Positions 7,787 through 53,649 of a stretch of 64,000 bases of DNA are shown here, piece by piece. Source of the stretch: Nemertoderma westbladi. Its lineage: Eukaryota > Animalia > Xenacoelomorpha. Every line of letters begins with the position of its first letter. Position 1 is the stretch's first letter. Under the pieces are notes generated by a model. That model was given only the letters and a program-made list of their open reading frames with translations. It ran no database searches and was not told the origin of the DNA. The translations under genes were made by a program, and so were the position numbers. The DNA is taken from the NCBI GenBank assembly GCA_032718475.1, contig JAUCBJ010008928.1, positions 62,001 to 126,000 on the forward strand. Reading direction: 5' to 3'.

Positions 7787-10700
7787 TTACTGTAGCTCAA
7801 TCAAAATACGTCGGATTTTCGAAAGTTTTTACGTTAAAGTTAAACTACAAATGCTATCTTATAGTGAAATAATTCATCAATATGAATTTATAAATTTATT
7901 CCCGTGAATTTTATTATTTGATATTAAAATAGACACAGTTTTATTCCAGAACATGTCTGGAGACTAGGATCCTTAATTCCAGAAATTTGTCTTTAAAGAG
8001 TATCGGTAAATGCTATGATATCTTAATCGACTATAATTTTAGAGGATCTGAATTTTAACAGATTTTTATTTATAGATTTTCTAGAGTCAATTTATTAGCA
8101 TTTCCTCTATTTTAGCATTTGTTTTAACAGATTTTATAAATATTTGTTAAATATTTAACTAGGATCCTTAATTACAAAATTTTGTCTTTTAAGAGTATCG
8201 GTAAGTACTACGATATCTTAATCAACTAGAATTTTAGAGGATCTAAAGGTTTAACAGATTTGTTAGCATTTCCTCTATTTTAACATTTGTTATAACAAAC
8301 GTTGTAAATATTTATTAAATATTTAATATTTAATATTTAGGATGGGCACATGTCTGGGGACGTTAACCACTGATTCTAGAACTTTGTATTTCAAGTATAT
8401 CGGTGGCTGCCACGATATCTTAATCGACTAGAATTTCAGATGGTCAAAAGTTTAACAGATTTATTTTGCGCGCTTCAACGCTACTGTTAAATAGACATCT
8501 TTCTACTATATGTATTATTTAAGATACGGTATGAGAGCAATATTGCAAGAAGCAATGTCAGTGAGAAGAGGTAAGTCATTTCCAAGGTCTACCCAGAGCT
8601 TGGTTTAGCTGAGACACGAGGATCTGAACTTTGCATTCCTAATACTCTACTTTACCAATAATACATAAGTATAGTAGGGGCGGTATATTGTACTTTAATA
8701 AGTACTGACATTTCATCTTACTGTAGTCACATATTTATAGTATGATACGGACAGTAAGGAAAGAGAAAATGAAATTATTTCTCGCCATTAACGAATTATA
8801 TTATACTAAGTAATTAAGTAATAAAACACAAAATATATTGCACTAATCTACTGAATAATCGTTAAAAAATATTATTCTACTAAATAAAATTAAAGAAAAC
8901 GATTATAATAATAGAAATTACATAATAATACATACATAAATATAAAAATAAAAATAAAATAAATAATGTAGTCACACACCCACTCCAAACGCTGTTACAT
9001 TGGGGAGTCCCTAGATGTTTGTTGGATTAGGGAGGTGGTCGTGGGAAGAGTCTCTTGCCTTCTATAGTTACCAGACAACTCTTGGTCTCTTTCCAGTAAA
9101 CATAAACGACCAACCGGGCGATTAAATTTCGCGGTTAATTTACTTTCAAACACAATTCCAGGTTTCTTAAAGTTACGTCGCATGACGATGAGTTCTACCG
9201 ATCGCACTAAACCATCATCGGATATATGAGTCTCGATGATACGACCTGTCTGCCACCTCTTACGGGAAAGATCTGATTACACGATAAGGACCATGTCTCC
9301 GGCGCTGACGTTTTCTTGCTGCGCAAACCACTTTGTTCGAAGTTGTAGTGTAGGAAGATAATGTTTTTCTAAATGGTCAGCGAAACGATAGGATAATAAC
9401 TGCATAAGTTGCCAAGTTTGTCGGCAGTATTCGTCTCCGTCTGTTATTTCCGATTGCGGGAGCATGGCTACAGGTTTCTTTAGTAGGAAATGCGTGGGTG
9501 TTAGCGCTTCTAGGGAGTCGGGACTCGATGAGACTGGCATAAGCGGTCTCTCGTTGAGATAGGCGGCGACTTCTTCCATTAACGTCCGCAAAAGTTCATC
9601 GGTGAGATACGCGCGGCACGGCACTATAAAGTGAAATGCGGTCTTTACGCTACGTATGAGTCTCTCCCAACTTCCCCCCCACCAAGGGGCGTCGGCGGCA
9701 TTGAAGGTCCAGCTAGATGCTGTTACTCTTAGCTGATCGTCCACCTGTCTTTGGTTCCAATCCTTTACGTAAGCTTTAATCTCGTTATTGGTGCCAATGA
9801 AATTAGTACCTTTGTCAGATCTCATAGTGTTGCTAGTCCCAAAATGAGCGATTTTTCGGCGTAAACTCAGTATGAAGCTGTTGGTAGATAGATCGTTCAC
9901 CATATCTAGATGGATCGCTCTACAAGTCATACAGACGAAGATGACGCACCATCGCTTGACTATAGTCCTAGCACGATATATTTCAATAGGGCCAAATAAA
10001 TCCACACCAGTATTAGTAAAGGGTGGTTCATAACAGCTTACTCGTTCCCTAGGTAATTCTGCCTCTCGCTGTGTTAAAGGCCTACTAAATGCTTTCCTAC
10101 AGGGTATACAGTTCCTAAGAACTTGGTTTAGAGCTCGACGGGGCTTATGGAAAAAATAGCGAGTTCGAATTTCGCTAAGAACTCATTATCTACCAGCGTG
10201 GTAAAGCTTACTGTGAACATCTACAATCATCTTGATTTGTATTTCAAGATTTCTATTGAGTATGGGAAACTTAGTGTCATGAACAATGGAGCATTGGTTA
10301 ATCTCCCTCCGACACGTATTAAACCATCTATCATTGTGCTAGAGAAACGATCCCTTAAGCGCATCTGTGGATTTCTTAACAACAGGAAATACTTATCGGA
10401 ATCCGCGTAACATTGCAGGAGTCTCAGTATCTGCTTGTTGGTATCATCATGTTCTTGGTAACTGATCTTCTCAGTCAGAAACCTATCAGACAGCCGATAA
10501 GTGGGAAGGTCTTTTGTAGCATGGACCCTTTCAGCTACTACTGAAGTGGCATCATTAGCGATCTTCGCCCTGGAATAGTGATGATGGAAACATCTTTTCA
10601 GATACACAATGGCCTTGCAAAGCTGATTCCAGGAGCTATAATGATCTATCGCCCTTTGTAGGAGAGGAGAGAGTCCTTGGGAGACATCTGGTTTTCCAGA

Positions 10701-13156
10701 TTTCCAGTCTCTTTCCTTTATTTCTATAACAGATTTATTTATAGTTCGAGTAACATCCATAGATGAATTTAGATCAACAGTTGCATCACCGGCGGTATGT
10801 AGCACAGACAGATCTATCGCTGGCTTAAACAGCTTTGATTTACTCGTCCAGGTTTTCAGTTTGACTTTCTCCGCTCCCTTAGCTTGTCTGATCTCCGCCA
10901 TGGTGAGATGAGGGGGCCATTCTTCCTCTTCTTTACCTAGGAAGTCGGGTCCAGCTAACCAGTCTGGATTGTCTATCAATTCTTGAGGAGTAGCTCCTAT
11001 GGAAGCGATGTCAGCTGGATTAATCGTCCTAGGGCAATGGCTCCATTGATCTATATTAGAGCGACTGAGTATAATGGCTACTCTGTTGTTAACAAAGACG
11101 CTGAACTGACAGACTTCATTAGTTATATACTCCAGAACGAGTAAAGCATCAGTCCAATAGACAGTTTTCTCTAGTGGATAGTCGATCTGTTCCGATACAT
11201 TCCGGCTGATGGCTGTAGCGTATAGAGCCGCCTTTAACTACGCTCTGGGAACCCGCAGTTTGTTGTTTATTAGGGCCTTGGAGGCGGCTAATGAAACTTT
11301 AATTCCATCGGGAGTTTCAACCCTCAGGTAGGCTACTATACCGATTCCAACATCGCTGGCATCTCCAAAAACATGGAGTTGATAGGAATACGCTAGACGA
11401 TACGGAATAGAGCCATCGCTTGGTCTTGCTTAACTTGGGCCCTAGTGCCGATAATAGACCTATGGTGCTTCACTAGCCTAGGGTCTGATACCACTACTGT
11501 AGGGATGACTTTTCTCACAGTATGAGGGGACTTAGACTTCGGTCTGGTATGTTCCATACTTTGATCTGGGTCACAGATCGTTCTTTCCAAGAGACTATCT
11601 GACAGTGTTTGTTTTGTGTCAGACATTTTTACAGTTGAATGGCTACTACTATAATAACAGTTAAAGCAAGTCTAGGGGAAATCAGTATCAACTGTCACTC
11701 TAGTAGTTACCGATATCGCTACTCAATGTAACGTGGTATATATCTAATATTAGAATACCGGTATACACCTATAGTATATATATCAGTATTATTACAGGAC
11801 AGACTATGATCAGTCACAGAATACCGGTATATAAGTTTAGCCTAATTTATATAAATATAATAAGCTTACCGTAAACACCGGTAATGTCAATTATTTAATA
11901 ATAACTGATTATCCGAATTTTAGGGATTACTTCCCTTTACTTTATTACTGATATTAAGCAGTAGTTCAACTGATATTAAGACCTAATTGATGTATAACAG
12001 GCCTACTATTTTATAAATCTGATTGAATTGATTTATAAATATATATATATATATATACCCGTAATGGGTTTGGTCAATATTTGAAATAAATGTTATTATT
12101 TCTGAGTAAGAAGTCACTACACAGAGGCTGAACGCTCTCAGTGGAGTGCTACTTAATAGACACTAATATTGATAAATTCTACTTAACTAAGTTACTTATC
12201 ACTACAAATTACTTACATATCGGGTTGAGATTACACAATCTCTAAATAAACAATAAACAAGTTACAAATACAATTTTTTAGGGTAATTTAACAAGAAATT
12301 TACGAACCAGACTAACAAGGAGTTAGAATTTCTGGTTCTTACAAACTGACAGGAAATTACGGTATTTGAAACCAATAAAGTAGTATTAAGTACGTTGTGT
12401 TGTCCAGATAAGGAAATGCCACCGTCTGACGGCTTATAGTCTTACACTATAAGCACTATGTTATGTACCCGGAGTGTCCTATACCTAGAGGTTAATTATC
12501 GAAGCCAACCAGAGCTAACAGACCTATTAACCACATTTCAACACAAATATACTGCCTACACACTAAATTACTTTCAGGAAAGCACTGTACTCTAAACCCT
12601 AAATTAGGTACAAGCACTTATACAACATATAACTAGCAGTTAAATATAGGTGAACAGCCAAAAGAACCACGGTATCTGCTGGAGTGACCGGAACACAAAA
12701 TCACCAGTCTGTCCTAAGCCAAGCAGTCCTGAAGTAGTACTGGGGTTAATTTAGTTATAACAGTATGCATAATAAGCATAATTACTGTGAGGGATAAACT
12801 TGGGGAGATGAAGGTTGCAAATACTTGCATAAACTCTGAATAATAAATATTACGCTACCCATACAGACTATTCAAATAAAACACAGACCAAATGCTGGCA
12901 GTCTACTGTCAAGCCTAAATAAACCACAGTATATGCAATCTCCGAAATGGTTAGTTAGTAAGCGTTCTAACTACGTAGTACGACTTATTCTTTCGTGGGG
13001 GATTTACGTTACAGCACTGGAGGCCTCCACATTCCTAACTAGCACTTTATCGGACAGACACTCTACATACACTGCAATCGCCTCAGACCTTACAACAGTT
13101 AGACAACAATCCGGCCTACTGGTGTACTGAATTTACATCCGCCGAAGCCAGTCCGT
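7787..13156 (-). mobile_element. BEL/Pao element B, internally deleted internal region
   Basis: Homologous to element C in the 5' leader, the start (MSDTKQTLSDSLL vs MSDAKQNLSDSLL), the C-terminus (LPTTTSLIQQTSRDS) and the 3' UTR. Gag, protease and RT are missing. Confidence 0.85.
8995..11390 (-). pseudogene. BEL/Pao RNase H (peptidase A17-type region) and integrase remnant
   Basis: Contains LHVFGDASDVGIG, YWTDALLVL, QWSHCPRTINPAD and DWLAGPDFL. Integrase motifs are GVDLFGP...IFVCMTCRAIHLD...RSDKGTNF...APWWGGSWERLIRSVK...LTPTHFL...LQLRTKW. Stops and a deletion near 10227 break it. Confidence 0.9.
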
Positions 13157-14160
13157 TGGGCTCCCTCTAATGATTCTGAGAGTACTCCTAAGTCATCAGC
13201 AAAGTCTAGATCAGTTAGGTACTTGGCAGGATTTCTTCGACTTCTGGAGCCAGTAGGTGGAGTTATCATCACCTCATCATCATTATGATGATCTAAGGAC
13301 ATGCGTAGAACATAGTCAACCACAATAATGAACAAGAATGGTGCAAGTGTATCTCCTTGGAGGACGCCCCATAACACTTTAAATGGTTCTGTGTCACCGT
13401 CAACAGTAGACACAAATGTTGTCGAACCATCGTATACTGATCTGATTGCTGCAATAATTTCATCAGGAATCCCATATAATGAAAGTATGCTGAACATACA
13501 TAAGCGAGAGACTGAATCAAAGGCCTTGAAGAAGTCAACAAAGATAACAGCCAGATGCCTGTCTTTCCTTTTTGATAATTCTTCAATTATCCTTCTAAGT
13601 GCCAAAATGGGCTCCATGGTCCCACGACCTTTACGGAACCCATTCTGATTTCAAAGGAACAGTCACTCAATGGGATCCCTGATGCGATTTAATACAATCC
13701 TATTGTATAGCTTTGCAGCAATCGAGATCAATGAGATTCCCCAAAAAGAACCATAGAGTGTTAGGTTGCCCTTCTTGGGAACTGGCACCAACTTATTTGT
13801 TTTCATTTCTTGTGGGACTCTTTTTGTTCGGTACATGTCTACTATGATGGGATAGATGAGCTTTAAACACTCAGGTATTTTAAAGACCTCAGGGAGAACA
13901 CCATCTTCTCCACTGGCACGATTGGTCTTAATGCTCTTTGTAGCAGCCTTCACTTCTGCAAAGGAGATATCACCAATGGGAATATCTGAGAGTACTTTTA
14001 CTTCTATAAAGCTATCAGGCAATACCCTGTCATTATTGAGGAGCTTTTCAAAGTGGGCTTTCCAACCATTGAGGTGATCGGCTGGTGATTCAGCCTTAAC
14101 CTTGGTGGTTGGTTGGCTTTTCCGCCCAGTAAGCAAATTGATCGATTTCCATGCCTGGGA
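13157..14160 (-). mobile_element. RTE-clade non-LTR retrotransposon RT fragment
   Basis: LVPVPKKGNL...GISLISIAAKLYN...NGFRKGR...VDFFKAFDSV...GVLQGDTLAPFLFIIVVDYVL...DLDFADDL, broken near 13660. Confidence 0.9.
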
Positions 14161-14568
14161 TGATTTGAGTCACAGTTGCTACCGGTAGACCCTTCCTCCG
14201 CTTACCTCAGTAATCAAGAAAGTTGAGGGGTTTACGATTATTTATCGGTATTCTCCAAATATAACATCCATTAATATAAACAGCAATTAACACAACATAA
14301 AACAGCATTAAAACAGTGCGGTGAACAGTCAGTATGTGTTCATGACATTCAGTATGATATGTGATATGATGTTACGATGTGATGCGGTTTGGTTTGGTCG
14401 TATATTGAGTTAATAGATTTATGTCCTTATAACTCCAGCCATCAGATGTTCTTGGGCCAAAGTCTGAAACAACCGTACTTAGTACAGAATTCTGAGAGGA
14501 ATCTGATTCTCAGAAAAACTATAACTGTGCATGCGCCAGTTTCCACAGGTAGGTCTCTACTGGCATGT
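14160..14568 (-). repeat. B-family LTR middle segment, copy without the element C insertion
   Basis: Near-identical to 16160-16490 plus 28537-28668. It contains the empty site AACTCCAGCCATCAG, and is homologous to the C LTR around TTATAAGGACA and the G-GTAAG donor. Confidence 0.8.
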
Positions 14569-14579
14569 AGAGAGCTGTA

Positions 14580-15000
14580 AGTACCGGTTCGGATCAGGCC
14601 TACAGTTTACCGTCCTACCGGTACGTTTTGGGTTTATTGCCTGCTGGGCAATAAGAGAAACAAAATCTATTAATGTTCGCGCTTTTAGACCTTTAGCAGT
14701 TTAACCTGCCAATTTAAATGTCTTTTTAATTATGAATCGACTTTTGCCCTTACCAATTACCTGGTGTACTGAATTTACATCCGCCGAAGCCAGTCCGTGC
14801 GCGGCCTATGACCCATGTTGTTCCAGATTCGGGTTCCAGAGGAAGTTATTGCGGTGTAGGCTACTTTATATTATTCGATTGAATGCTACTATATAATCTC
14901 TGACAACTATATTTACTTTCGGGGAAATATTAACAGTTCCTTTGGGACGTGGCGCTTTAAGTATAAAACAGAGTTATGACTTACACTAATCACAACTAGA
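14580..15000 (-). repeat. B-family LTR 3' end (U5) plus start of the internal region
   Basis: Minus strand GGTTAAACTGCTAAAGGTCTAAAAGCGCGAACA ends at 14674 and matches the C LTR end GGTTAAACTGCCAAAGGTCTGAAAGCGCGAACA. The upper boundary is approximate. Confidence 0.8.
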
Positions 15001-15247
15001 TGGCTACAGAGTATCGTAAATAGCGCATTCTTTAGGAGATGCTTTATTAACTTTCACACGACTTCACTCTACTTCACACTAATTTACACTAATTCACACT
15101 AATTTGCCGACCGTCACTGATTTATATCATATATGAGGAAGATTGCAACTGACACACGTAGGGATTATGAAATAGCATTTAATTCACACAAAACCATTAT
15201 AATTTGAGTCACTACTAGGATCGGCATGCTGCATTGCAGCTGCATTT

Positions 15248-15610
15248 TTAAGAATGCTGTGCTGGCTTGTCAACAAAATTGCACCGCCACAACTCCCTAT
15301 CACCCATGACATTTGCTAGATCATCCGCATCTTCAAGGCCAGTGTCCTTTAAGATGCGTCTCAAGAAAGTCATGGGCTGGCCACCATGCTTATTCACTCC
15401 ATGAGGCTGCCAAAGTACAAGATTATGCACTGGCTGGTCCTCACGGCGAAAGCAATGTCCTGCAAAGAGGAGGCGATTTTGTTCTAGTGTCAAGCTTGGG
15501 GAACCAATGAGACACCTCCAATGTTATATAGTGTCTGGTTGTAGATGTGTGCATTGTACTTGACACAATGAACCCGGCGTAACATTCTTGTGAATGTGCC
15601 ATCCAGAGAT
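15248..15610 (-). mobile_element. RTE-clade LINE 3' end
   Basis: LDGTFTRMLRRV...RLLFAGHCFRR...LVLWQP...VMGDRELWR. Confidence 0.8.
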
Positions 15611-15879
15611 TTTTATTATTGATAGTAACAATGTGTTGGCAAGCTGTATTTTTCGAGGTGTTTGTTATTATACATTTATTATAGGAAGGGATCTTGGGGT
15701 CTTAGCCTCGAATGATAAGTTTATTTTACCGAAAATAACTTATCTTTTATTGGCGCAATTGTAGGACTAATCCCATCACATGCGTACTTTTTAACCGGGT
15801 AGTGTACAAATTTAGGAATCGCGTAATTTTTTCTTGAAATTAATATCTCATATCTCTCCAAACCACGTACGCGTTTCGA

Positions 15880-16160
15880 GAACACCATCTTCTCCACTGG
15901 CACGATTGGTCTTAATGCTCTTTGCAGCAGCCTTCACTTCTGCAAAGGAGATATCGCCAATGGGAATATCTTGAGAGTACAGACTCAGACACTTTTACTT
16001 CTATAACGCTATCAGGCAATACCCTGTCATTATTGAGGAGCTTTTCAAAGTGGGCTTTCCAACCATTGAGGCGATCGGCTGGTGATTCAGCCTTAACCTT
16101 GGTGGTTGGTTGGCTTTTCCGCCCAGTAAGCAAATGGATCGATTTCCATGCCTGGGATGA
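15880..16160 (-). mobile_element. second copy of the RTE LINE pre-RT segment
   Basis: Near-identical to 13895-14160 (MLTGRKSQPTTKVKAESPAD...). Confidence 0.8.
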
Positions 16161-16490
16161 TTTGAGTCACAGTTGCTACCGGTAGACCCTTAATCCGCTT
16201 ACCTCAGTAATCAATAAAGTTGAGGGGTTTACGATTATTTATCGGTATTCTCCAAATATAACATCCATTAATATAAACAGCAATTAACACAATATAAAAC
16301 AGCATTAAAACAGTGCGGTAAAACAGGGTTCACCGCATCATACTGAACATATACATACTGACTGTTCACTGAACAGTCAGTATGACGTGTTCATGAAGTT
16401 CAGTATGATATGTGATATGATGTTACGATGTGATGCGGTTTGGTTTGGTCGTATATTGAGTTAATAGAATTACGTCCTTATAACTCCAGC

Positions 16491-17592
16491 TGTAAAAGCT
16501 TTTGCTGAATTGTCCGGTTATTTTTCCTTATTTTTCCTGTAAAATACTCTGTAGTTGGTTTACCAGGCATAAAAAGGCCGTGTCCTTGCTGTACTGGTGT
16601 TTTAGCGGACATAAAAGCTATTTCTTCTGTATTTGTACTTTAGAGGACATAATCCGTAATTCCGTGACGTAAAAGCTCGATACTCTTGAAAACAGTGTCG
16701 CTACCATGACGACGGCTAGCAGCTGATATTGCCACGTCGACGTTTCTTTGTTTCTTTGTTCTCTCGTTGTTCAGTGTTTTCAGTTTTTAGTCCTACACTA
16801 GTAGGCTTAATTATAAGGACATATATCCGTTATCTGATGTCTGATCACTGATGTCTGCATACTGCATACTGCAGTACTGCATACACTGCATACTGTGTAA
16901 CACTGTGCATACTTTTATATTGTTATACATGCTATTTACTGTCAGTTCTTCATAATATGGTTGATGAATTATTATATTTGGAATAACGACAAATAACCCC
17001 GAAAACCCAATATTCTTGATATACCGAAGGTAAGAGAGAAAGGTTACAGATAAATGATTGCGACCTATGTTGAGTGGTTTGAAGTGAATCTAATGTTATT
17101 TGATAGACCCTACATGATTCGGTCCGTGTTCCTTTTATATGTGACTAAAATCAGTGAAGATCGGCAGATCAGTGTGCAGTATTGTGCAGCATTGTGTATG
17201 AGTGAGACTGATAACGAAGCATTTCCTAAAGAATGCGCCATATATGTGAATTGTAACTAAGCCATATCGTTGTGAGTAGTTTAAGTCATAACTCTGTTTG
17301 TATAGATAGAGCGCCACGTCCTAAAGGAACTGTTAATATTTCCCGAAGGTGAATAATATTGTCAGAGATTATATAATACTGTCAGTCGAATAATACATTA
17401 AGCTTACATAGCAATAAAATTAAGCCGTCGAACCCAATCTCCCGGGTATATCCAGCGGGTGAATGATCGCGCACAGATTGGTTTCGACTAGTGTAGTGAA
17501 TTAAATACTTGTCATAGACTAAAGGTGATTTATTATCTAGAAGACATCCTAATTTGGTGGGTTAAACTGCCAAAGGTCTGAAAGCGCGAACA
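16491..17592 (+). repeat. 5' LTR of element C
   Basis: TGTAAAAGC...GCGCGAACA. Differs from the 3' LTR by a few SNPs and two short indels. Confidence 0.97.
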
Positions 17593-17631
17593 ATAACGGA
17601 TATAGCTTCTTTATTGCAGTAAGCAATAAAG
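17593..17631 (+). other. non-tRNA primer-binding site plus hairpin
   Basis: No TGG follows the LTR. ATAACGGATATA (17593-17604) is the exact reverse complement of LTR 16822-16833, and is followed by the hairpin CTTTATTGC-AGTAA-GCAATAAAG. Confidence 0.65.
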
Positions 17632-17957
17632 TTGAAAGTACCGGTCAACCGGTAAACCTGAAAAGGTACATCTGTAGGTCAGTAGGCCTAACTGCCAGAA
17701 CCGGTACTGCCGTAGGTCCGTAGGTCCAACTGCCAGAATCGGTACTTCAGTAGGTCGGTAGGCCTAACTGTCCTAACCGGTACTTCCCGTATAAGTACAG
17801 CAGTATTATTCGATTTGATTGTTATATACCAGTAGGTCTTAATAATTAATCGGGGACGCCTGGTTTTTATTGAGATTTTACTTATTTCTGTCAAGTTTTA
17901 TTTGTTTGTAGGCCAGTATTGAACAGAAGGCGTGTAAGCCTGATCAGATTGTACAGA

Positions 17958-18540
17958 CAATTTGTAGGCTGAGCTGTTGTCTGGCTGTTATTAAGTCTGA
18001 ACGGATTGCAGTGTGTGTAGATCATCTGTCCGATAAAGAACGGTTAGGAAGTAGGGGCAGCGAATGCTGTAAGGTAAACCCCCAACTAAAGAATAAGTCG
18101 TACTACTGGGTTAGAACGCATACTACCTAATTATTTCGGAGTCTGCATGTCCTGTAGTTTATTTAGGCTTGAGAGTAGTCTGCCATCGTTGAGTCTGTAC
18201 TTTGTTTGTGTAAGTCTGTACGGGTAGCGTATAATATTTATTTAGATAATTTGTAGGCTGGATAGTTGTCTGGCTGTTATTAGGTCTGAACGGATTGCAG
18301 CGTGTGTAGATCACTTGTCCGATAAAGAACGGTTAGGAAGTAGGGGCAGCGAATACTGTAAGGTAAACCCCCAACTAAAGAATAAGTCGTACTACTGGGT
18401 TAGAACGCATACTACCTAATTATTTCGGAGTCTGCATATACCGTAGTTTGTTTAGGCTTGATAGTAGTCTGTCAGTGTTTGGTCTGCATTTTGTTTGAGT
18501 AGTTTGTACGCGTAGCGTAATATTTATTATTCAGAGTTTA
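17958..18540 (+). repeat. about 290-bp tandem duplication in the element C leader
   Basis: 17958-18247 is repeated at 18248-18540. Each copy starts at an acceptor-like ATTTGTAG. Confidence 0.8.
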
Positions 18541-19968
18541 TGCGATTATTCGCAACATTCATTCCCCAAGTTTGTTCCTACAGTAATTGTGTTTGTTATA
18601 CATACCGCTATAGTTAAATTAACCCCGGTACTACACGGGCTGCTTGGCGTAGGTAAAGACTGGTGATTTTGTGCATCGGTCACTCCAGCAGATGCCGTGG
18701 TTCTTTTAGCTGTTCAAGTATATTTAACTACTGATTATATGTTGTACAAGTACTCGTACCTAATTTAGGGTTTAGTGTACAGTGCTTTCCGAAAGTAATT
18801 AGTGTAGGCATTACATTTGTGTTGTAAAGTGGTTGATAGGCACTTTCGATTAGCTCTATTAACTTCTAGGTAGGAACACTCCGTGATACATAACGTAGTA
18901 CCTATAGCGATACGGCTATAGGTCGTCAGGCGGTGGTATTTTCCTATCTGGACAACACAGTGTACTTACTACTACTTATTATTTTCAAATACCGTAGTAC
19001 CCTGTCCGTTGTAATTACCAGATTTCTAACCCTTTGTTAGGCTGGTTTGTAGACTTCTTGTAAAATTACCCTAAAAATTCGTATTTTGTGTTTTTTGTAA
19101 ATTTTTGTGTTTAGTTAGAGATTGTAATCTCAACCCGAATTGTACGTAATTTGTAGTATTAAGTAACTTAGGTAAATTAGAATCATTTGTTTTAGTGTCC
19201 TGTACGTAACACTTCACTGAAAGCGCACCGCTTTGTGTAGTGATTACTCCCCAGAAATAATAACATTTATTTCAACATTGACAAAACCCATTAAACGGGT
19301 ATATATATATTATAAATCAAATCTAACGATTTATAAATAGTAGGCCTGCCATACAACCATTAGGTCTCAATATCAGTTGGATTACTGCTCAAATAACGGT
19401 AATAAAGTAAGTAAGGTAACCAAGTAACCCTTGAAATTCAGAAATTCAGTTATTTAAAATAATTGATATATCGGTATTTACAATAGGCTTATTATATTTA
19501 TTTCTATAAATTTTAGGTTGAAATCATACCGGTATTCTGTAATTAATTCTAGTTTGTAATTATACTTATATATATACACTATAAGTGTAAACTGCATACC
19601 GGTATTTACGATAGGCCTATTATCTTTATTTCTATAAATTTAGGCTGAAATTATACCGGTACTTGTAATTAATTCTAGTCCAGAATTATATATACTACAA
19701 ACTGTAAGCTGTATACCGGTATTCCCGATAGGCCTATTATATATTTATATATATTTGTGCTAAAGTTATACCGGTATTCTGTGATAAACCTAGTCTGTAA
19801 TAATAGTTATATATACTATAAGCATACTGGTATTCTAATATATTATATATACCACGCTACACTGAGTAGTAGTACCGGTAATTAATTACTAGGCTAGCAG
19901 TTAATACTGAGTTACTAGACTTGCTCAGACTGTAATACAGCAGTAGACATTCAACTGTACACATAAGC

Positions 19969-22900
19969 ATGTCTGACGCAAAGCAGAACCTGTCAGACAG
20001 TCTACTAGATACAACCGAGAGCGAAGTGACAGCAGAGAGGCCGCGAAAGAGAGATGCCATTGACATCTATCTGTCAGACTATCAACGCTTTGTGGGAGAT
20101 GAAGAGTTGAGGAGAAGGCTGGAGGGGCTTAGCCCTAATAGTGAAGGAACCAAGCTTGTGCTGGACGCAATTGATGCGGAAATGTTAGCGGCGAACCAAG
20201 CTAAATTTGATGAACAACTCCGCCTGACACGAGTCCAAGAAGAACAAGTAAAGAAAAAACGTATAGAAGACCGAAAGGCAGTGGCAGTAGCAGCAGCAGT
20301 GGCAGCTGCAGAAGCAGAAAGAAAAGCGGCAGCGGCAGAGGCAGCGGCAGAGGCAAAAGCGGCAGTAGCAGCAGCAGTGGCAGCTGCAGAAGCAGAAAGA
20401 AAAGCGGCAGCGGCAGAGGCAGCGGCAGAGGCAAAAGCGACAGTAGCAGCGGCAGTGGCAGCTGCAGAAGCAGAAAGAAAAGTGGCAGCAGCAGACGTAG
20501 CGGCAGAGGCAAAAGCGGCGGAGGCAGTGGCAGAAGCCGAACGGAGAGCGACTGAAGAAACCACTCAATTAGAATTGGAAAACATTCAGGAGAATCAAGA
20601 CTGCATAAATAAACAGTTAACAGCTAGTAATATGCAGATGATGAATCGATCTACTCCCAAAAGACAGGGATATACATCATCTGAGGAAGGCGATACCACC
20701 GACACTGAAGGCGGAGGAAATCGATCCCGCCTAAGCAGACGTAAAAGAACATTCCACCGTCAGAAATTGCCTGATTTGCCTCCAGCTGTTAGAAGGCAAC
20801 TAAATAACACCAACTTAGAGAGTACAGAACCCACAGACCAAATAATTACAATAGAAAGACTCCCTACTATAGTAGATGAGCCTGAAATAAGTAGGCCTGT
20901 TCTTGAAATCACCCCTTCGGTAATAGATACACCTGTGCTCCCTGAAGCTACCTATAAATTCCCTCTGCATAGCACTAAGCTACCTGTGCCCCGTAGAACT
21001 GCCCAGGAGACAGTTCAGGTCCTGGACCCCGAGCGAAATATTCCAAATTTGTCGCCCGTTGTCCCTCGTCTGCCCGCTACGACGTTGGCGGATCCCGTTT
21101 CGGCGGTTGATTGGGTAGACGAGAGACGGCGGGGGATGGATATTCTCCTCGGAGAGATGAAGGAGAATCGGATACGCTCCTCCCAACAGGTCCGAGAGTT
21201 GGAAGGGACTGTCCAACATTTAAAGGGAACAGTGAGGGAAAGTAAGTTAGAGTTGCAAGAAGTGCAGCAAAATATCGCGCTAGAGCGCGATAAATTAGTA
21301 AATTTACAAAAGGGTATACCACCACCCCCTGTAACAATGTGTCAACCCGTTAGGTCTGAAGTAACTCATGCGCAAGGTGTGGAGCCTACACGCATTTATA
21401 CTGCTAGCGAAGTAGAAACTCCTATAGTGAACCCTATTAAGGGTAATTATAGACCTGTTGATAATGATATTCCCTATAGACCGGATCATAATCCGAGAAA
21501 TTTATATACCGATAATTCGATATTAAATAACACGATGGCCCAAGAAAGTTTTACGCATCAAATGGCTAGAACCGAAGCCCGGCAAGCGGTGAAGGTGGGA
21601 GAGATCGTCAAGTTCAATGGAGATGAGATGAAATGGTTACCTTTTAATGAATATTACAAAGATAACATACAGAACTCTGTACTATCTAACGGAGAGAAAC
21701 TTAGATTCCTCATCGAATGTTTGGAAGGACCTCCCAAGTCAATGGCGTTAAAATTTATTGGACATCCAGATGGATTAAGACAAGTTTGGGATACACTAAA
21801 CATCAGGTATGGTAATAGGACTAACATAGCTAGGTATTTATATGCGAAATTAATGGTGCCCCGAAAGTTTCTTAGCAGCGGGATTATAGAGTTTTCCGAT
21901 GAGATTCAGGAGATCTGTAGACAACTAGATTGGTTAGGTAAGTCTCATGAATACCAGAATTCTATGGTTGTAGGAGCCTTAGCATCTACTTTGCCCAAGG
22001 GTGGAGTAGGTACACGCTGGGACAAGAAGGTGTTATATATGATGGAACAACAACGACGAGACCCTACCATGACTGATCTCATGTCATTCTTAGATAGAGA
22101 AGTGAAATTACAGCTCCTAAGGCAGTCCAGAGAGAAGACATTGGAAAACAAGGTAAGTGAGAAACCCGTTTCTAGGAGAAGGGTAACACCAGTATGTTAT
22201 ACCGACGACGGTGAAAGCCAAACTTCTCAAGGAGAGGACAGCGGGAAAGACACTGACAGATCTTATTATGTCAATAAAATGCCTAAAGATCAGGTAAGTA
22301 AATCCGAGTCTCGACCCAATGACAGAAGGGAACCGGTACAAAAAACCCTTCCTACGTCTCCTAAAAGAATTCAGGTGAGAAAGCCCGAGGAAAGAACAAG
22401 TGTGCACCACATAGCACAGGTTAAAGTAAGTAACATCAAGCCGAAATGTGTGCTGTGCGACGGGCCCCACCGTTTAAATGCGTGTGATAAATTCCTGAGG
22501 AAATCACTAAAGGATAGACGTGAAGTCATGTGGGATAAGCGGTTGTGTTATAATTGCCTCAGACGAGGACACCAACGGCGAACCTGTAACTCCGACGCAA
22601 GGTGTGCAAAGTGCGGCGCAAAACATCATATCTTGTTGCACACGGAATTCGAACGAAACAGCCCGAGTCAGGTAAGTGAGTCCGAACTACATGTCCAATT
22701 CAGTGATGTGAACGACACTGATAAATCTGAGATGGAAGGATTCTATACAGACGAGTTCTCCGACCAAAACGAATCCTGTTACCTAATAAACACCACCGCA
22801 GCGTATCGAGTACTCGTGCATGAGAAAGACACAGACAGCGACCTTACCTTAACTACTTCCGATCAACAACCATCTTGGAAAGCGCCAACTTCCAATATAG

Positions 22901-24186
22901 GAATCCGAGAATTTCCTGTAGTCCAGTTACGGGTCCACGGACCTCAGAAGAGCTGTATAGTGAACGCCCTCCTGGACTCCGGTAGCACAGGAACATTCAT
23001 CGATAAAGAACTAGCCGAAGTCATCTTTGCTGGACAACCCAAGTTCCGAACCAAGCTAAACATGTCAGGGATCATGCAGGTTTGGAATTCTACTGTAGCT
23101 TCCGACTATTATATAGGTGAGTTGTCCACTCCACAGGATAAACTAGGAGAATACAGTATAAGGTCAGTAAAAATGGTGGCAATAAAGAACTTCGCTACTA
23201 CTCAAGCAGACCTTTATAATTGGGACGAGGATGAGAGCATCCAACATCTTAACATACCTCGATTCCAGACTGATTATCCTGGAGTGCAAGTACTCATCGG
23301 CCAAAACGCGCATGAGGCGCTGGAGACATTAGAGAAACGGCCTGCTCAACCGCAGCCCCTACAGACCTATGCGGTAAGAACTAGAGTAGGTTGGTACCTT
23401 ACTGGACCTTCCCGTAGAACGCTCAGGGAAAGACTGCTTCAAGATCGCGTCTGCCAGGTGAGTGAATGGGAAGATGATACTAGTGAGGGAGACGACCCAA
23501 CTGAGGGAACACCACACTCCTCAGATAATGACAATCTTAGCTCCAATGTAGATCAATGGAGATATTGCCCCAAGAAGTTTAATCCAACGGACATCGCTTA
23601 CAGAGGAGCAACTCCTCAAGAACTGACAGATACTATAGACCGGTTAGGTGAACCCGACTTCCTGAGTAAGGAGAATGAATGGCCTCCCCATCTTACTCCG
23701 ACTGAGATTAGACCAGCCAAGGGAGCGGAGAAAGTCGAACCTGAAACCCGGACGGGTGGATCGGAGTTATTTGAACCCGGGATAGATCTGTCGGTATTAC
23801 ATGTTGCCAGGGACGACGCCGTGGATCTGGGCCTCCCCTCCGCGAGTGGATCCTTCATGAAGATCAGAGAGAGCGATTGGAGCTCTGGAACATCAGACGT
23901 CTCGCAGGGACTCTCACCTCTCCTGCAGAGAGCGATGGACCACTATAGCTCCTGGAATCGGCTTTGTGACGCCGTCATATACTTTGAGCGATGTTTCTAT
24001 CGTCACTATTCCAGGACGAAGAGGAAACCTGGAATTGTATTCAGGATGCAGCGACACAATCACCCAGTCGGTCGTTTGTGTTTACCGGAAGGGAATGGAG
24101 GACTCTCCGGAAACTGTGGAAGGCAAGATTCTCTTCCCACGACCACCTCCCTAATCCTTCAAACATCTAGGGACTCCATAACGTAA
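19969..24186 (+). CDS. BEL/Pao Gag-aspartic protease fused in frame to short post-RNase H and integrase C-terminal remnants (1405 aa, no RT)
   Basis: Ala/Glu coiled-coil repeat (78-bp unit); KFNGDEMKW...EKLRFLIECL; knuckles CVLCDGPHRLNAC, CYNCLRRGHQRRTC and CAKCGAKHHILLH; ALLDSGS; YAVRTRVGWYLTGP. It then jumps to DQWRYCP...NPTD and KPGIVF...PVGRLCL. Confidence 0.93.
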   Translation: MSDAKQNLSDSLLDTTESEVTAERPRKRDAIDIYLSDYQRFVGDEELRRRLEGLSPNSEGTKLVLDAIDAEMLAANQAKFDEQLRLTRVQEEQVKKKRIEDRKAVAVAAAVAAAEAERKAAAAEAAAEAKAAVAAAVAAAEAERKAAAAEAAAEAKATVAAAVAAAEAERKVAAADVAAEAKAAEAVAEAERRATEETTQLELENIQENQDCINKQLTASNMQMMNRSTPKRQGYTSSEEGDTTDTEGGGNRSRLSRRKRTFHRQKLPDLPPAVRRQLNNTNLESTEPTDQIITIERLPTIVDEPEISRPVLEITPSVIDTPVLPEATYKFPLHSTKLPVPRRTAQETVQVLDPERNIPNLSPVVPRLPATTLADPVSAVDWVDERRRGMDILLGEMKENRIRSSQQVRELEGTVQHLKGTVRESKLELQEVQQNIALERDKLVNLQKGIPPPPVTMCQPVRSEVTHAQGVEPTRIYTASEVETPIVNPIKGNYRPVDNDIPYRPDHNPRNLYTDNSILNNTMAQESFTHQMARTEARQAVKVGEIVKFNGDEMKWLPFNEYYKDNIQNSVLSNGEKLRFLIECLEGPPKSMALKFIGHPDGLRQVWDTLNIRYGNRTNIARYLYAKLMVPRKFLSSGIIEFSDEIQEICRQLDWLGKSHEYQNSMVVGALASTLPKGGVGTRWDKKVLYMMEQQRRDPTMTDLMSFLDREVKLQLLRQSREKTLENKVSEKPVSRRRVTPVCYTDDGESQTSQGEDSGKDTDRSYYVNKMPKDQVSKSESRPNDRREPVQKTLPTSPKRIQVRKPEERTSVHHIAQVKVSNIKPKCVLCDGPHRLNACDKFLRKSLKDRREVMWDKRLCYNCLRRGHQRRTCNSDARCAKCGAKHHILLHTEFERNSPSQVSESELHVQFSDVNDTDKSEMEGFYTDEFSDQNESCYLINTTAAYRVLVHEKDTDSDLTLTTSDQQPSWKAPTSNIGIREFPVVQLRVHGPQKSCIVNALLDSGSTGTFIDKELAEVIFAGQPKFRTKLNMSGIMQVWNSTVASDYYIGELSTPQDKLGEYSIRSVKMVAIKNFATTQADLYNWDEDESIQHLNIPRFQTDYPGVQVLIGQNAHEALETLEKRPAQPQPLQTYAVRTRVGWYLTGPSRRTLRERLLQDRVCQVSEWEDDTSEGDDPTEGTPHSSDNDNLSSNVDQWRYCPKKFNPTDIAYRGATPQELTDTIDRLGEPDFLSKENEWPPHLTPTEIRPAKGAEKVEPETRTGGSELFEPGIDLSVLHVARDDAVDLGLPSASGSFMKIRESDWSSGTSDVSQGLSPLLQRAMDHYSSWNRLCDAVIYFERCFYRHYSRTKRKPGIVFRMQRHNHPVGRLCLPEGNGGLSGNCGRQDSLPTTTSLILQTSRDSIT

Positions 24187-25836
24187 CAACATATGGAGTG
24201 GGTGTGTGACTCTATTATTTTGTATTTGTTTTATTTTTATATTTATGTATGTATTATTATGTAATTTTATTTTAATCGTTTTATTTAATTTTATTTAGTA
24301 GTGTGGTATTTTAGAGATTATTTAGTAGATTAGTGCAATATATATTCGCGTTTATTATTTAATTACGTATATTATATATTTAGTGCGACGGCAAGAAATA
24401 ATTCTTTTCCTCTTTCCTTACTGTCTGTATCATATTATAAATACGTGACTACAGTAAGATGAAATGTCCGTACTTATTAAAGTACAATAAAGCCACTACT
24501 ATATTCAAGTATTATTGGTAGGCAGAGTATTAGGAATGCAAAGTTCAGATCCTCGTGTCTCGGCTAAACCAAGCTCTGGGTAGACCTTGGAAACGACTTG
24601 CCTCTTCACACTGACATTGCTTCGTGCGATATTGCTCTCATACCGTATATTAAATAATACATATAGTAGCGTGATGTCCCTTTAACAGTAGCGTATAACG
24701 CAAAATAAATCTGTTAAACCCTTTGACCATCTGCAATTCTAGTCGATTAAGATATCGCGGCACCCACCAATATACTTGAAAGACAAATTTTAGAATCAGT
24801 GGTTAACGTCTCCAGACAAGTTCTGGAATAAATTGGTGCCCATCTCAAATATTAATTATTTAATATTTGCAAATCTAATAAATCAAAATCTGTAAAATTC
24901 AGATCCTTCAACAATTCTAGTCAATTAAGATATCGTAGCATTTACCGATATTCTTAAAAAGACAATTGTCACAGAATTAAGGATCTTGTGTCCCCAGACA
25001 TATTCTAGAATCAAAATATGTCCATTTAATTATCAAATAATAAAATTTCAGGGAATAAATTTAAATTCATGCCTTTTAATGAATTTAATAAATTGCCATT
25101 TTTTCGCAATTTATAACATTCCCAAAATTCCATTAATTAATAGATCAAGGGAGCGGAGATTTATCTTATTATGCATATGAGTGTGCGAAAGTCTCCCAAA
25201 CCTAGTCAATAGCCGATAAAATTCATAAAGTCATGTATAAAACAGAACATTGACTATTAAAGAATACTATTAAATAACATCCCAGATCTGTATGCATTGG
25301 AATTACTCTAATTCTACCGCTAGCTTTGCATAATGTCACCATAGCAACAACCACGCTAGAATTAGAATTGAGTTAAAAGAACAATAGAAAGCTTGTCCTA
25401 TTGAATAGCATAGGGAATAAATAGCGCACTACTAGTATCCAAGGATACATAATAATACAGTGACATTCTGGAAGGCATTGACTAACGGACAAATGGCCCG
25501 AATGTGCGTAGTTGTGACCAGTTGTGTGGTATTTGTGAGTTTATAGGTGAATGTTACTGCTAAAGTGTGTTTACAGTAGCTAGTCGCAATCGTAAAAGTA
25601 ACCTAACTCTCCAAGGAAAACCTGAAGTACATCTAAGCCTTTGGGACGGACAGTTGAGTGACTTGTGCCGGTTGTCGTTGTCGTTGTGCGGCTACGTCGT
25701 TGGCGAAAGTACAGCGGCGACGACACATCGGCGCTGAGGATCTCGTACTGTCCGGGGGTTGATTGGGGTAGGCAGCGACGCCCGCTCGCCTAAATATAAA
25801 CTCATTATAATATGGATAAACTCATATATAGCAGAT

Positions 25837-26796
25837 ATGACGGAGTTGATAGAAGATGTTCTTGGTATCGGGGAGCGATATACTCTACTTTTGCAAGCGT
25901 TTGTTGATAGCTTAATACGCGGCGACGTTAGTCCAACTGCTGCGGAGGACGATGGTCGTTATATCGAACCGCCAATGTCCCAAGAGCAGCTCGCGCGCGA
26001 GTTGGACTATAGAAAATTCGCTGCTCGATATACGCAGCGTAATGGTACGTATATGGCCTTCTTAACTACTGGTCATCCTATCGATTTACACGATATAGAC
26101 GATATAGACACCAAAAGGGAAATGGTTCTATTTAAATATCATACCCAGCGGAGGCGGAACAATAAACCGAGAATCGAACATGAGAATTCTATGCGAAACC
26201 GAATCGAAAGAGAAGACGTTGAGGAGCCGGATAATCGCAGCGACTTCAACGATTATCTGGAATTCCTGATAGAAACATATCTCAATATTGCCAGTCAACA
26301 AAATCTAGAAACTCGATATCCTCAAGGTATACATCATGACTGCATGGTAGAACTCAAACGGCTCGATTACCCTATGATGTATCTTACCGCCGATCGACCG
26401 CCACCTGTTGTACCGAATAGCTTCGAACGGATGGAGGAATATTGTAAGCTGGAGAACGATCACCCGCGTTTCCCCTACAAGACGTACGTTTTTGGGTATT
26501 ATTGCGATGAATGCCCAAGACCCAACCAACAAACGGAAAGACATAAACATCCGCGGAGACGTTGCTTTAAACACGGTTTTACTCGCTATACTTACAGGAG
26601 TTTCGAGCGAAACTTGTTCAATGTATCACCTACGCTCGTTCGACTCAGACGATCCTTAAATAAACCAATGATCAGAGTTTCGGAATACTCGATCAGAGCT
26701 CCTCATTCCCTAGTGAGACCTCAGACTCTTGATCCTATTAGTATGACGGATCCTCCCGAGCTGTATTCACTGTTCAAAGATCTAGTGCTACCCTAA
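25837..26796 (+). CDS. orphan accessory ORF (about 319 aa) in the env position of element C
   Basis: Intact ORF between the pol remnant and the 3' LTR. The ATG is preceded by an acceptor-like TAGCAG. It has a CxxC...CxxH cluster and no evident signal peptide or TM segment. Confidence 0.65.
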   Translation: MTELIEDVLGIGERYTLLLQAFVDSLIRGDVSPTAAEDDGRYIEPPMSQEQLARELDYRKFAARYTQRNGTYMAFLTTGHPIDLHDIDDIDTKREMVLFKYHTQRRRNNKPRIEHENSMRNRIEREDVEEPDNRSDFNDYLEFLIETYLNIASQQNLETRYPQGIHHDCMVELKRLDYPMMYLTADRPPPVVPNSFERMEEYCKLENDHPRFPYKTYVFGYYCDECPRPNQQTERHKHPRRRCFKHGFTRYTYRSFERNLFNVSPTLVRLRRSLNKPMIRVSEYSIRAPHSLVRPQTLDPISMTDPPELYSLFKDLVLP

Positions 26797-27435: not shown

Positions 27436-28536
27436 TGTAAAAGCTTTTGCTGAATTGTCCGGTTATTTTTCCTTATTTTTCCTGTAAAATACTCTGTAGT
27501 TGGTTTACCAGGCATAAAAATGCCGTGTCCTTGCTGTACTGGTGTTTTAGCGGACATAAAAGCTATTTCTTCTGTATTTGTACTTTAGAGGACATAATCC
27601 GTAATTCCGTGACGTAAAAGCTCGATACTCTTGAAAACAGTGTCGCTACCATGACGACGGCTAGCAGCTGATATTGCCACGTCGACGTTTCTTTGTTTCT
27701 TTGTTCTCTCGTTGTTCAGTGTTTTCAGTTTTTAGTCCTACACTAGTAGGCTTAATTATAAGGACATATATCCGTTATCTGATGTCTGATCACTGATGTC
27801 TGCATACTGCATACTGCATACTGCAGTACTGCATACACTGCATACTGTGTAACACTGTGCATACTTTTATATTGTTATACATGCTATTTACTGTCAGTTC
27901 TTCATAATATGGTTGATGAATTATTATATTTGGAATAACGACCCGAAAACCCAATATTCTTGATATACCGAAGGTAAGAGAGAAAGGTTACAGATAAATG
28001 ATTGCGACCTATGTTGAGTGGTTTGAAGTGAATCTAATGTTATTTGATAGACCCTACATGATTCGGTCCGTGTTCCTTTTATATGTGACTAAAATCAGTG
28101 AAGATCGGCAGATCAGTGTGCAGTATTGTGCAGCATTGTGTATGAGTGAGACTGATAACGAAGCATTTCCTAAAGAATGCGCCATATATGTGAATTGTAA
28201 CTAAGCCATATCGTTGTGAGTAGTTTAAGTCATAACTCTGTTTGTATAGATAGAGCGCCACGTCCTAAAGGAACTGTTAATATTTCCCGAAGGTGAATAA
28301 TATTGTCAGAGATTATATAATACTGTCAGTCGAATAATACATTAGGCTTACATAGCAATAAAATTAAGCCGTCGAACCCAATCTCCCGGGTATATCCAGC
28401 GGGTGAATGATCGCGCACAGATTGGTTTCGACTAGTGTAGTGAATTAAATACTTGTCATAGACTAAAGGTGATTTATTATCTAGAAGACATCCTAATTTG
28501 GCGGGTTAAACTGCCAAAGGTCTGAAAGCGCGAACA
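27436..28536 (+). repeat. 3' LTR of element C
   Basis: Direct repeat of 16491-17592. Confidence 0.97.
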
Positions 28537-28863
28537 CCAGCCATCAGATGTTCTTGGGCCAAAGTCTGAAACGACCGTACTTAGTACAGAATTCTGAGAG
28601 GAATCTGATTCTCAGAAAAACTATAACTGTGCATGCGCCAGTTTCCACAGGTAGGTCTCTACTGGCATAACTGGGAAGATTGCTCTGATTGGCTGAATAG
28701 ACTCAAACAAAGGAATCTCCACATATACAAAGAATCAGCTGACAGATTTCGTCATCTTGGTTCTAATTTCTGACCGATGCGCTGTTGAACAATTTTAGGG
28801 CTACTTTAGAGTATTCCGCGCATTGCGTAAAAATGACATGTTATGTCCGCAAAAGCTTTTACA
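28537..28863 (-). repeat. 5' (U3) part of the B-family LTR interrupted by element C; continues at 16490-16160
   Basis: Minus strand starts TGTAAAAGCTTTTGC at 28863, the same 15 nt that start the C LTR. CCAAT box at about 28685. Confidence 0.85.
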
Positions 28864-52326: not shown

Positions 52327-52340
52327 TTTTATTTTTCTAG

Positions 52341-53640: not shown

Positions 53641-53649
53641 TATGTTAAA

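What the first reader, a model, noticed from the sequence alone, without database searches (positions are those of the whole stretch)
14410..17631. Candidate tRNA-independent self-priming in a BEL/Pao family: the PBS is complementary to the element's own LTR, with compensatory changes
Seen: neither B nor C has a TGG PBS. In C, the 12 nt right after the 5' LTR (ATAACGGATATA, 17593-17604) are the exact reverse complement of LTR 16822-16833, which follows TTATAAGGACA. In the B family, the 11 nt after the LTR end (minus TTAATAGATTT, 14673-14663) complement the LTR segment at the same position after TTATAAGGACA (14420-14410). The two families differ at 4 of 11 positions and all 4 are compensated. 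Both PBSs are followed by a TTATTGC..GCAATAA hairpin with different loops. Established: the Tf1/sushi group of Gypsy-type elements self-primes with an 11-nt PBS paired to its own 5' RNA, whereas BEL/Pao elements are generally described as tRNA-primed. Inference: this lineage may have evolved self-priming independently. Caveat: the B LTR pieces are rearranged, and the second B copy (16461-16471) has one mismatch.
Basis: partly seen in the sequence, partly recalled or inferred. Interest (0 to 1): 0.92.

Follow-up and report, generated by a model that had tools for sequence, protein, structure and literature searches.

The report
Self-complementary primer site in BEL/Pao retrotransposons
Two related BEL/Pao jumping genes lack the usual tRNA landing site and carry there 11-12 letters that pair, through four matched changes, with a stretch of their own terminal repeat, so they likely start DNA copying with a piece of their own RNA, although where that RNA begins is untested.

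Summary
Observation confirmed. Element C (16491-28536; 1.1-kb LTRs, 5-bp TSD) has no TGG site. Its 12 nt after the LTR are the exact complement of LTR 16822-16833 (2 of 5000 shuffles). In sister element B, all 4 PBS differences are compensated (about 4e-5 by a simple model). B's LTR is not permuted but interrupted by C and an RTE insert; its in-register segment pairs 10/11, a duplicate 11/11. In both, pairing ends exactly at the LTR end, where a primer's 3' end must sit. The PBS is predicted open between shared stems. Both are BEL/Pao deletion derivatives lacking RT. Best reading: self-priming, 0.75 overall; the Tf1-like cis route 0.5. Against cis: TATAAG sits 4 nt upstream, and ATG depletion, TATATAA and AATAAA suggest a second start near 17400, which could put the segment in U3. 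Public contigs show a commoner PBS variant whose LTR partner I could not test. No start site, RNA or host tRNA data. My paper searches found no BEL/Pao self-priming, but this scan noted the same kind seven times on other DNA, unchecked.

The parts
16491..17592 (+). 5' LTR of element C (1102 nt, TG...CA)
   Evidence: 3 mismatches and 15 gap columns against the 3' LTR; two X4 contig pieces stop aligning at 17592 (table 8)
27436..28536 (+). 3' LTR of C; purine-rich 27428-27435 precedes it; TSD CCAGC at 16486-16490 and 28537-28541
16811..16821 (+). Motif TTATAAGGACA abutting the segment; identical in the B duplicate (14432-14422, minus), 10/11 in the B in-register copy; either a start or processing signal, or a weak TATA box
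   Evidence: function inferred
16822..16833 (+). Candidate self-primer of C (12 nt, complement of the PBS)
17028..17034 (+). Splice-donor-like AG|GTAAG inside the LTR, also in B (16204-16198, minus)
   Evidence: use as a donor untested
17370..17418 (+). TATATAA (17370) and AATAAA (17413) in the most conserved LTR block; candidate downstream promoter and poly(A) signal. B keeps TATATA but has AATAAC
   Evidence: function inferred
17467..17589 (+). Predicted U5 structure shared with B: stem 17467-72:17584-89 ending 3 nt before the LTR end, inner hairpin 17553-17574
   Evidence: p 0.97 and 0.95 in C; 0.92 and 0.93 in B
17593..17604 (+). PBS of C, directly after the LTR's CA, no TGG
17609..17654 (+). 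Two post-PBS hairpins (17609-17631, 17639-17654), both present in B with different loops
19969..24186 (+). C Gag-PR ORF (DUF1759, three zinc knuckles, LLDSGS), continuing in frame into the end of RNase H; RT and most of RH/IN absent
25738..26796 (+). Extra 352-codon ORF of C in the env position; no family found
28537..28863 (-). 5' part of B's 5' LTR (starts like C's LTR)
16195..16485 (-). Middle part of B's 5' LTR with the in-register segment 16471-16461 (10/11 pairing)
   Evidence: lower boundary approximate
14674..15196 (-). 3' part of B's 5' LTR (70% identical to C 17075-17592)
14608..14673 (-). B PBS (14673-14663) and its two hairpins
14190..14566 (-). Duplicate of B's LTR middle part, holding the 11/11 segment 14420-14410
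   Evidence: lower boundary approximate
7882..13119 (-). Body of B: leader 75-81% like C, RNase H remnant (11420-10860) and integrase with DUF5641 (10302-9160); no gag, PR or RT

Best explanation
These two BEL/Pao elements carry an LTR segment that is complementary to their PBS, and they likely prime reverse transcription with it: a transcript predicted to start at or up to about 45 nt before 16822 would fold back onto the PBS and be cut after 16833. Shown: the complementarity, its register at the LTR end, four compensated changes, no TGG site, and no RT in either copy. Predicted by folding: the 12-bp helix, and a PBS left open between a U5 stem and a downstream hairpin in both families. Inferred: the start site; cleavage by RNase H supplied in trans by an autonomous relative, as in Tf1; extension from the new 3' end into U5; and a second promoter near 17370-17400 that makes the ATG-poor gag mRNA. 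Copying of the primer back into the PBS during plus-strand synthesis could explain the exact compensation (inferred). Some self-derived primer, by any route, has about 0.75; this cis route about 0.5.
For: 12/12 pairing in C, reached in 2 of 5000 shuffles. 4 of 4 PBS differences are compensated in B, about 4e-5. Cognate duplexes score -26.0 and -21.4 kcal/mol against -11.5 and -9.9 for swapped partners (these include flanks). In both families the segment's 3' end pairs with the first base after the LTR and pairing stops there. Helix probability is 0.97 for 5' ends at 16776, 16782, 16790, 16800, 16811 and 16822 in folds ending at 17660. The PBS window has the lowest opening cost of 30 tiled 12-nt windows in C 17400-17760, and costs 0.5 kcal/mol in B. 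A U5 stem next to the PBS is predicted in both, like one flanking duplex of the Tf1 'pretzel' (10.1101/2022.12.06.519325). The B/C changes in the inner U5 hairpin keep pairing, and so does 17558 T>C, seen at 66-100% of depth in 4 of 4 runs. An Inr-like match at 16779 (C only) and a conserved donor at 17030 suggest transcripts starting upstream of 17030. An identical 11-nt motif abuts the segment in LTR regions that are otherwise about 62% alike.
Against: No start site or RNA end was mapped, and no run on record as RNA holds the stretch. TATAAG (16812) lies 4 nt before the segment; as a TATA box it would start RNA near 16842, past the segment. There is no TATA 25-30 nt before 16822. ATGs are not depleted in 16784-17246 (13 against 9.2 expected) but strongly depleted from 17247 (6 against 54.5), which fits a main start near 17400 and would put the segment deep in U3. 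The helix drops to 0.65 for a start at 16770 and to 0 for starts at 16762 or earlier (5 distinct starts and 16491). B's in-register copy has one mismatch, and the B duplex alone is weak (-7.9 kcal/mol). In one search, two PBS differences (17593, 17597) reach 53-74% of depth in 3 of 4 runs, yet no difference at 16829 or 16833 is among the 40 rows shown (97 not shown; clipping is a likely but unproven reason). There are only two families and one evolutionary comparison.
Confidence: 0.5

Rival explanations
1. Self-derived primer from U3, acting in trans or from the RNA's far end. The genomic RNA starts near 17400 (or near 16842), so the segment exists only in the 3' U3 copy or in a separate LTR transcript. 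A second RNA is cut after the segment and primes on the PBS of the packaged genome.
For: TATATAA 17370, AATAAA 17413 and a structured U5 of about 155 nt give a textbook short-R layout. ATG depletion starts at 17247. The PBS is open in an RNA starting at 17400, and the segment costs only 1.8-4.6 kcal/mol to open. TATAAG lies just upstream of the segment.
Against: Cutting in the 3' U3 removes the R needed for strand transfer, so a second RNA must be sacrificed. The fixed adjacency of motif and segment would be a coincidence if the motif were a TATA box. B lacks a canonical AATAAA at the homologous site. I know no precedent (own knowledge).
Confidence: 0.25
2. The pairing is structural (5'-3' circularisation, packaging, or a translation/replication switch), and the true primer is something else.
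For: End-to-end pairings are known in Ty1 and retroviruses (own knowledge). A conserved hairpin replaces the PBS in fungal GalEa with no known primer (PMC5445492). The post-PBS TTTATTGC can also pair with the LTR's GCAATAAA at 17411-17418 (sequence).
Against: It does not explain why the pairing ends exactly at the LTR boundary in both families, and it offers no other primer site.
Confidence: 0.15
3. A tRNA half, another host small RNA, or a mitochondrial tRNA is the primer.
For: Half-tRNA priming without TGG is known in Copia lineages (PMC6317226, PMC10886601). The host tRNA set could not be examined (no genome held).
Against: At least three PBS states (C, B and the read variant) would need different host RNAs, and a host primer does not explain compensated changes in the LTR. 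By inspection the C complement does not fit a YU-NNN-R anticodon loop at its 3' end; the B complement fits only an unusual AUU anticodon (own knowledge).
Confidence: 0.07
4. Chance, or the relic of a single ancient inverted duplication.
For: AT-rich 11-mers; found post hoc; only two families.
Against: 2 of 5000 shuffles; a one-off duplication would not keep four later changes matched.
Confidence: 0.03

Closest known systems
Tf1/Tf2 (S. pombe), Tj1, Tosmo and the Tf1/sushi/Tcn1 chromoviruses (Ty3/gypsy)
   Same: An 11-12 nt PBS directly after the LTR's CA, complementary to an LTR segment, with no tRNA site. A U5 sequence next to the PBS pairs with LTR sequence downstream of the segment.
   Different: Here the superfamily is BEL/Pao. 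The segment lies 760 nt before the LTR end in a 1.1-kb LTR. It is not shown to be the first bases of the RNA. The second pretzel duplex is predicted to be replaced by a local hairpin, and a conserved 11-nt motif abuts the segment.
Copia TAR lineage (Houba, Osr-1), self-priming predicted (PMC6317226)
   Same: Self-priming inferred from LTR/PBS complementarity outside Tf1/sushi; that survey's criterion (10 nt or more, starting 0-5 nt after the LTR) is met by C.
   Different: Plant Copia elements, not animal BEL/Pao.
Belpaoviridae (BEL/Pao) as described by ICTV (PMC8742986)
   Same: Gag with DUF1759 and three zinc knuckles, PR, RH, IN with DUF5641; LTRs within 0.2-1.2 kb.
   Different: ICTV describes an 18-nt PBS for tRNA-Arg or tRNA-Gly; none is present here. 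C is 12 kb, non-autonomous, with a 2.4-kb leader and an extra ORF.
Fungal GalEa conserved hairpin site (PMC5445492)
   Same: No tRNA PBS; a conserved hairpin with a variable loop right after the LTR.
   Different: The authors found no LTR sequence complementary to that site; here there is one, and it co-varies.
Cer7 of C. elegans (recalled, not retrieved)
   Same: Recalled as a BEL/Pao element proposed to carry its own tRNA-like primer copy.
   Different: As recalled it still mimics a tRNA and lies in the internal region. No tRNA-like fold or Rfam match at gathering score was found here.

Membership tests
BEL/Pao (Belpaoviridae) | Gag with DUF1759 and triple Cys-His knuckles | tested here: met
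   C: PF03564 E 4e-13 and three knuckles at aa 838, 871, 890
BEL/Pao (Belpaoviridae) | Pol order PR-RT-RH-IN with BEL-type IN and DUF5641 | tested here: met
   Met for the parts that remain: PR then end of RH in C; RH then IN/DUF5641 in B. 72 homologs at 31-43% identity, most with PF05380/PF18701
BEL/Pao (Belpaoviridae) | BEL-type reverse transcriptase | tested here: inconclusive
   RT is deleted in both B and C, so no RT tree could be made
BEL/Pao (Belpaoviridae) | TG...CA LTRs and a short TSD | tested here: met
   1102/1101-nt LTRs, 5-bp TSD
BEL/Pao (Belpaoviridae) | PBS complementary to a tRNA 3' end (ICTV description; not the taxonomic criterion) | tested here: not met
   No TGG within 40 nt of either LTR end
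Tf1/sushi group | Ty3/gypsy chromovirus proteins | tested here: not met
   Proteins are BEL/Pao type; no chromodomain hit. It is not a member; the question is only whether it works alike
Tf1-type self-priming | PBS next to the LTR, complementary over about 11 nt to an LTR segment | tested here: met
   12/12 in C; 11/11 and 10/11 in B
Tf1-type self-priming | The segment is the 5' end of the RNA | not testable with these tools
   No raw RNA reads; sequence signals conflict
Tf1-type self-priming | Two flanking duplexes between PBS-adjacent sequence and LTR sequence (pretzel) | tested here: inconclusive
   Upstream duplex predicted in both families; the downstream one is possible (8 bp in C, 7 in B) but a local hairpin wins in the fold
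Tf1-type self-priming | RNase H cleavage after the primer | not testable with these tools
   Needs RNA end mapping
Splice-junction self-primer (earlier scan notes) | PBS complement made only by removing an LTR intron | tested here: not met
   The complement is contiguous in the DNA; the donor at 17030 lies about 200 nt downstream and its exon end does not match the PBS

The most novel reading that the evidence does not exclude
A BEL/Pao lineage primes with a U3-encoded RNA delivered in trans: a separate LTR transcript, or a sacrificed second genome, is cut to give the primer for a genome that starts about 570 nt further downstream. That would be a two-RNA, tRNA-free priming route unlike Tf1's fold-back.
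Probability: 0.25. Interest if true: 0.85.

Novelty: new variant of a known kind. Interest (0 to 1): 0.62.

Why it matters
ICTV describes BEL/Pao replication as poorly understood and tRNA-primed. Self-priming here would put the mechanism in a third LTR superfamily, after Gypsy (shown) and Copia (predicted). It would imply that a BEL RNase H can cut an RNA duplex and that loss of the tRNA primer evolves repeatedly. It would also explain why PBS-based annotation misses such elements. The question is directly testable with start-site and RNA-end mapping in the host.

Tried and rejected
(1) Outer extension of the helix (motif with the post-PBS tract): it looked good but is not significant; 577, 801 and 1115 of 2000 shuffled tails did as well for C, B1 and B2. 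Dropped. (2) No whole genome is held, so no genome-wide copy alignment and no host tRNA comparison. (3) Relatives in public collections: none by protein in viral or metagenome contigs. The 17 DNA-pattern loci are chance hits; only 2 of 17 gave a BLAST line, limited to the 20-21 nt pattern. (4) No RNA holder on record among 7 listed runs; X5 is only guessed to be RNA, and contigs cannot show starts. (5) The read-based test of the LTR partner of the commoner PBS variant was not obtained, so that prediction is open. (6) The local depth peak over the motif and segment (2.7x and 17x its flanks in X1) is not used: depth is no copy number. (7) Rfam: 7 matches at E up to 5, none at gathering score. 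ARAGORN: 0 tRNAs in the window. (8) Element A (986-4678): LTR ends not identified; its two 10-nt matches are at chance level. (9) Extra ORF: no Pfam, PDB or Atlas hit; this does not show novelty. (10) The hairpin probabilities used a wrong index and were redone. (11) Paper searches used the phrase 'bel pao', which probably does not match 'BEL/Pao'; their zero counts carry no weight. (12) Cer7 appeared in none of the 20 and 30 listed papers.

Full report
Anatomy. Element C spans 16491-28536 on the plus strand. Its LTRs (1102 and 1101 nt, TG...CA) differ by 3 mismatches and 15 gap columns, and it has a 5-bp TSD, so it is young. Its 1405-aa ORF has DUF1759 (E 4e-13), three zinc knuckles and a protease motif, then jumps in frame to the end of RNase H; RT and most of RH and IN are absent. 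Element B lies on the minus strand. Its body (13119-7882) is 75-81% like C's in the leader and keeps an RH remnant and an integrase with DUF5641. That integrase found 72 homologs at 31-43% identity, most with BEL/Pao Pfam families. Both are non-autonomous BEL/Pao derivatives. The host is unknown; an animal is inferred from the element class.

B's LTR. It starts at 28863 with the same first 15 nt as C's LTR. C is inserted into it, and an RTE-containing insert splits it again. The three pieces are in normal order and sum to about 1.1 kb, with the TTATAAGG motif about 329 nt from the start (320 in C). The segment in register with B's PBS is thus 16471-16461 (10/11). The perfect copy at 14420-14410 lies in a duplicate of about 97-99% identity. 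At the two places in the motif and segment where the in-register copy departs from the duplicate, C agrees with the duplicate, so those look like later decay (inference).

The observation. It is confirmed as written. A match of 12 nt or more at the LTR end arose in 2 of 5000 dinucleotide shuffles. The chance that four differences fall on the same four of eleven positions and all compensate is about 4e-5 under a uniform model. Cognate duplexes with flanks score -26.0 and -21.4 kcal/mol, swapped ones -11.5 and -9.9. Neither PBS region has TGG in 40 nt. In both families the segment's 3' base pairs with the first base after the LTR's CA and pairing stops there. This is where a primer's 3' end must lie (established knowledge).

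RNA context (predicted). B and C share a U5 stem ending 3 nt before the LTR end, an inner U5 hairpin and two hairpins after the PBS, with probabilities 0.92-1.0. The three B/C changes in the inner hairpin keep pairing, as does 17558 T>C, seen at 66, 77, 100 and 100% of depth in four runs. The PBS is the cheapest of 30 tiled 12-nt windows to open in C 17400-17760. The segment-PBS helix has probability 0.97 for 5' ends between 16776 and 16822, 0.65 at 16770, and 0 at 16762 and all earlier starts tried. An apparent outer extension of the helix failed its shuffle control.

Where the RNA starts is the open point. For an upstream start: an Inr-like match at 16779 in C, TTTCAG about 30 nt before the motif in both families, a conserved AG|GTAAG at 17030 that needs an upstream exon, and the fixed adjacency of the 11-nt motif to the segment. 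Against: TATAAG at 16812 could be a TATA box, giving a start near 16842, and there is no TATA 25-30 nt before the segment. ATGs number 13 against 9.2 expected in 16784-17246 but 6 against 54.5 from 17247 to the gag start. TATATAA (17370) and AATAAA (17413) sit in the best-conserved block, a classical short-R layout that would put the segment about 570 nt inside U3. Two promoters reconcile these signals but leave open whether priming is in cis or in trans.

Public runs. Six of 7 listed runs hold part of the stretch, in 4 studies; none is on record as RNA and all are contigs. Laid on 16700-17700, they show two PBS differences, 17593 A>T (66, 53, 0 and 74% in X1, X3, X4, X5) and 17597 C>A (69, 64, no cover, 74%). 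If these lie on one haplotype they define a third PBS state. I noted the predicted LTR partners before testing, but the test was not obtained. No difference at 16829 or 16833 is among the 40 rows shown (97 hidden). Depth falls 17-fold just after the segment in X1, so variant copies are probably clipped there, and in X5 the segment bin has only the depth of one C-like contig. This is neither support nor refutation.

Literature. PMC8742986 (whole text): Belpaoviridae have an 18-nt PBS for tRNA-Arg or tRNA-Gly, and replication is poorly understood. PMC7175516 (passages): Tf1's first 11 bases pair with the PBS and RNase H cuts between bases 11 and 12. 10.1101/2022.12.06.519325 (passages): the three-duplex pretzel. 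PMC4600332 (passages): Tj1. PMC6317226 (passages): self-priming predicted for Tcn1 and the Copia TAR lineage. PMC5445492 (passages): fungal GalEa hairpin site. PMC3601003, PMC10886601, PMC5443660, PMC3286476 and PMC13524379 (passages) mention no BEL/Pao self-priming in what I saw. PMC3118150 and PMC554778 have no PBS or tRNA passages. Ten searches (two of them void) listed no paper on self-priming in BEL/Pao. Most subscription papers and Repbase/GyDB entries are not covered, and I read no supplements, which could hold PBS tables. The Cer7 precedent is recalled only.

Earlier scan notes. Seven unchecked notes report the same kind of pairing in BEL/Pao elements on other DNA, two of them with a primer made by splicing. 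They are not evidence. They led me to test for a junction primer here: the complement is contiguous and the LTR donor is about 200 nt away, so this family is not of that type. No look-alike of this sequence was found in the index.

Verdict. The feature is real and well beyond chance. A primer made from the element's own LTR segment is the best account (about 0.75): Tf1-like fold-back 0.5, U3/trans 0.25. A purely structural pairing gets 0.15, a host RNA 0.07, chance 0.03. It works like Tf1 at the level of the pairing but is not a Tf1/sushi member. Novelty: new variant of a known kind. Interest 0.62, held down by two families, no start site and the untested third variant.

Noticed in passing
window 25738-26796 (+): Extra 352-codon ORF in the env position of C, with a TATAAA about 40 nt before its second ATG; no Pfam, PDB or Atlas match.
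   Followed up: partly
window 17593-19968 (+); 7200-4676 (-); 13119-11628 (-): Very long ATG-depleted leaders: C 5 against about 46 expected, element A 5 against 44.8, B 9 against 29.4, suggesting scanning through 1.5-2.5 kb 5' UTRs.
   Followed up: partly
window 17610-17617 with 17411-17418 or 17623-17630: The post-PBS TTTATTGC can pair either with its own hairpin arm (which holds an AATAAA) or with the LTR's AATAAA region; a possible way to mask the 5' LTR poly(A) signal.
   Followed up: no
window 16600-16670: C's U3 has repeated modules (TAAAAGCT three times, GGACATA three times); 16645-16660 is a degenerate copy of the motif plus segment that pairs with 8 of the first 9 PBS bases.
   Followed up: partly
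window 19969-24186: C's ORF stays open across the large pol deletions and has an Ala/Glu-rich repeat (20268-20560); likely a maintained non-autonomous Gag-PR family.
   Followed up: partly
window 986-4678 (-): A third BEL/Pao element (A) with a stop between two gag-region ORFs; LTR ends not identified.
   Followed up: partly
window 42440-45883 (+): A fourth, decayed BEL/Pao element with Gag, PR and RT remnants; no LTR found.
   Followed up: no
window 46116-61751: Maverick/Polinton-like element: 550-bp inverted ends (97%), protein-primed PolB ORF 48247-52326, and an RT-bearing insert at 55418-56311.
   Followed up: no
window 7745-7670 (-); 52960-54440: tRNA-like A/B-box sequences, probably SINE heads, one set in a tandem array; ARAGORN called none.
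   Followed up: no
window 38883-40005; 31317-32679; 35467-35866: A 1.1-kb palindrome (87%), a 38-bp tandem array and a 50-bp tandem array.
   Followed up: no
window 13136-14190 (-) and 15878-16195 (-): RTE-like non-LTR fragments with an RT domain inserted in B; the LTR/RTE junction was duplicated before C inserted.
   Followed up: partly
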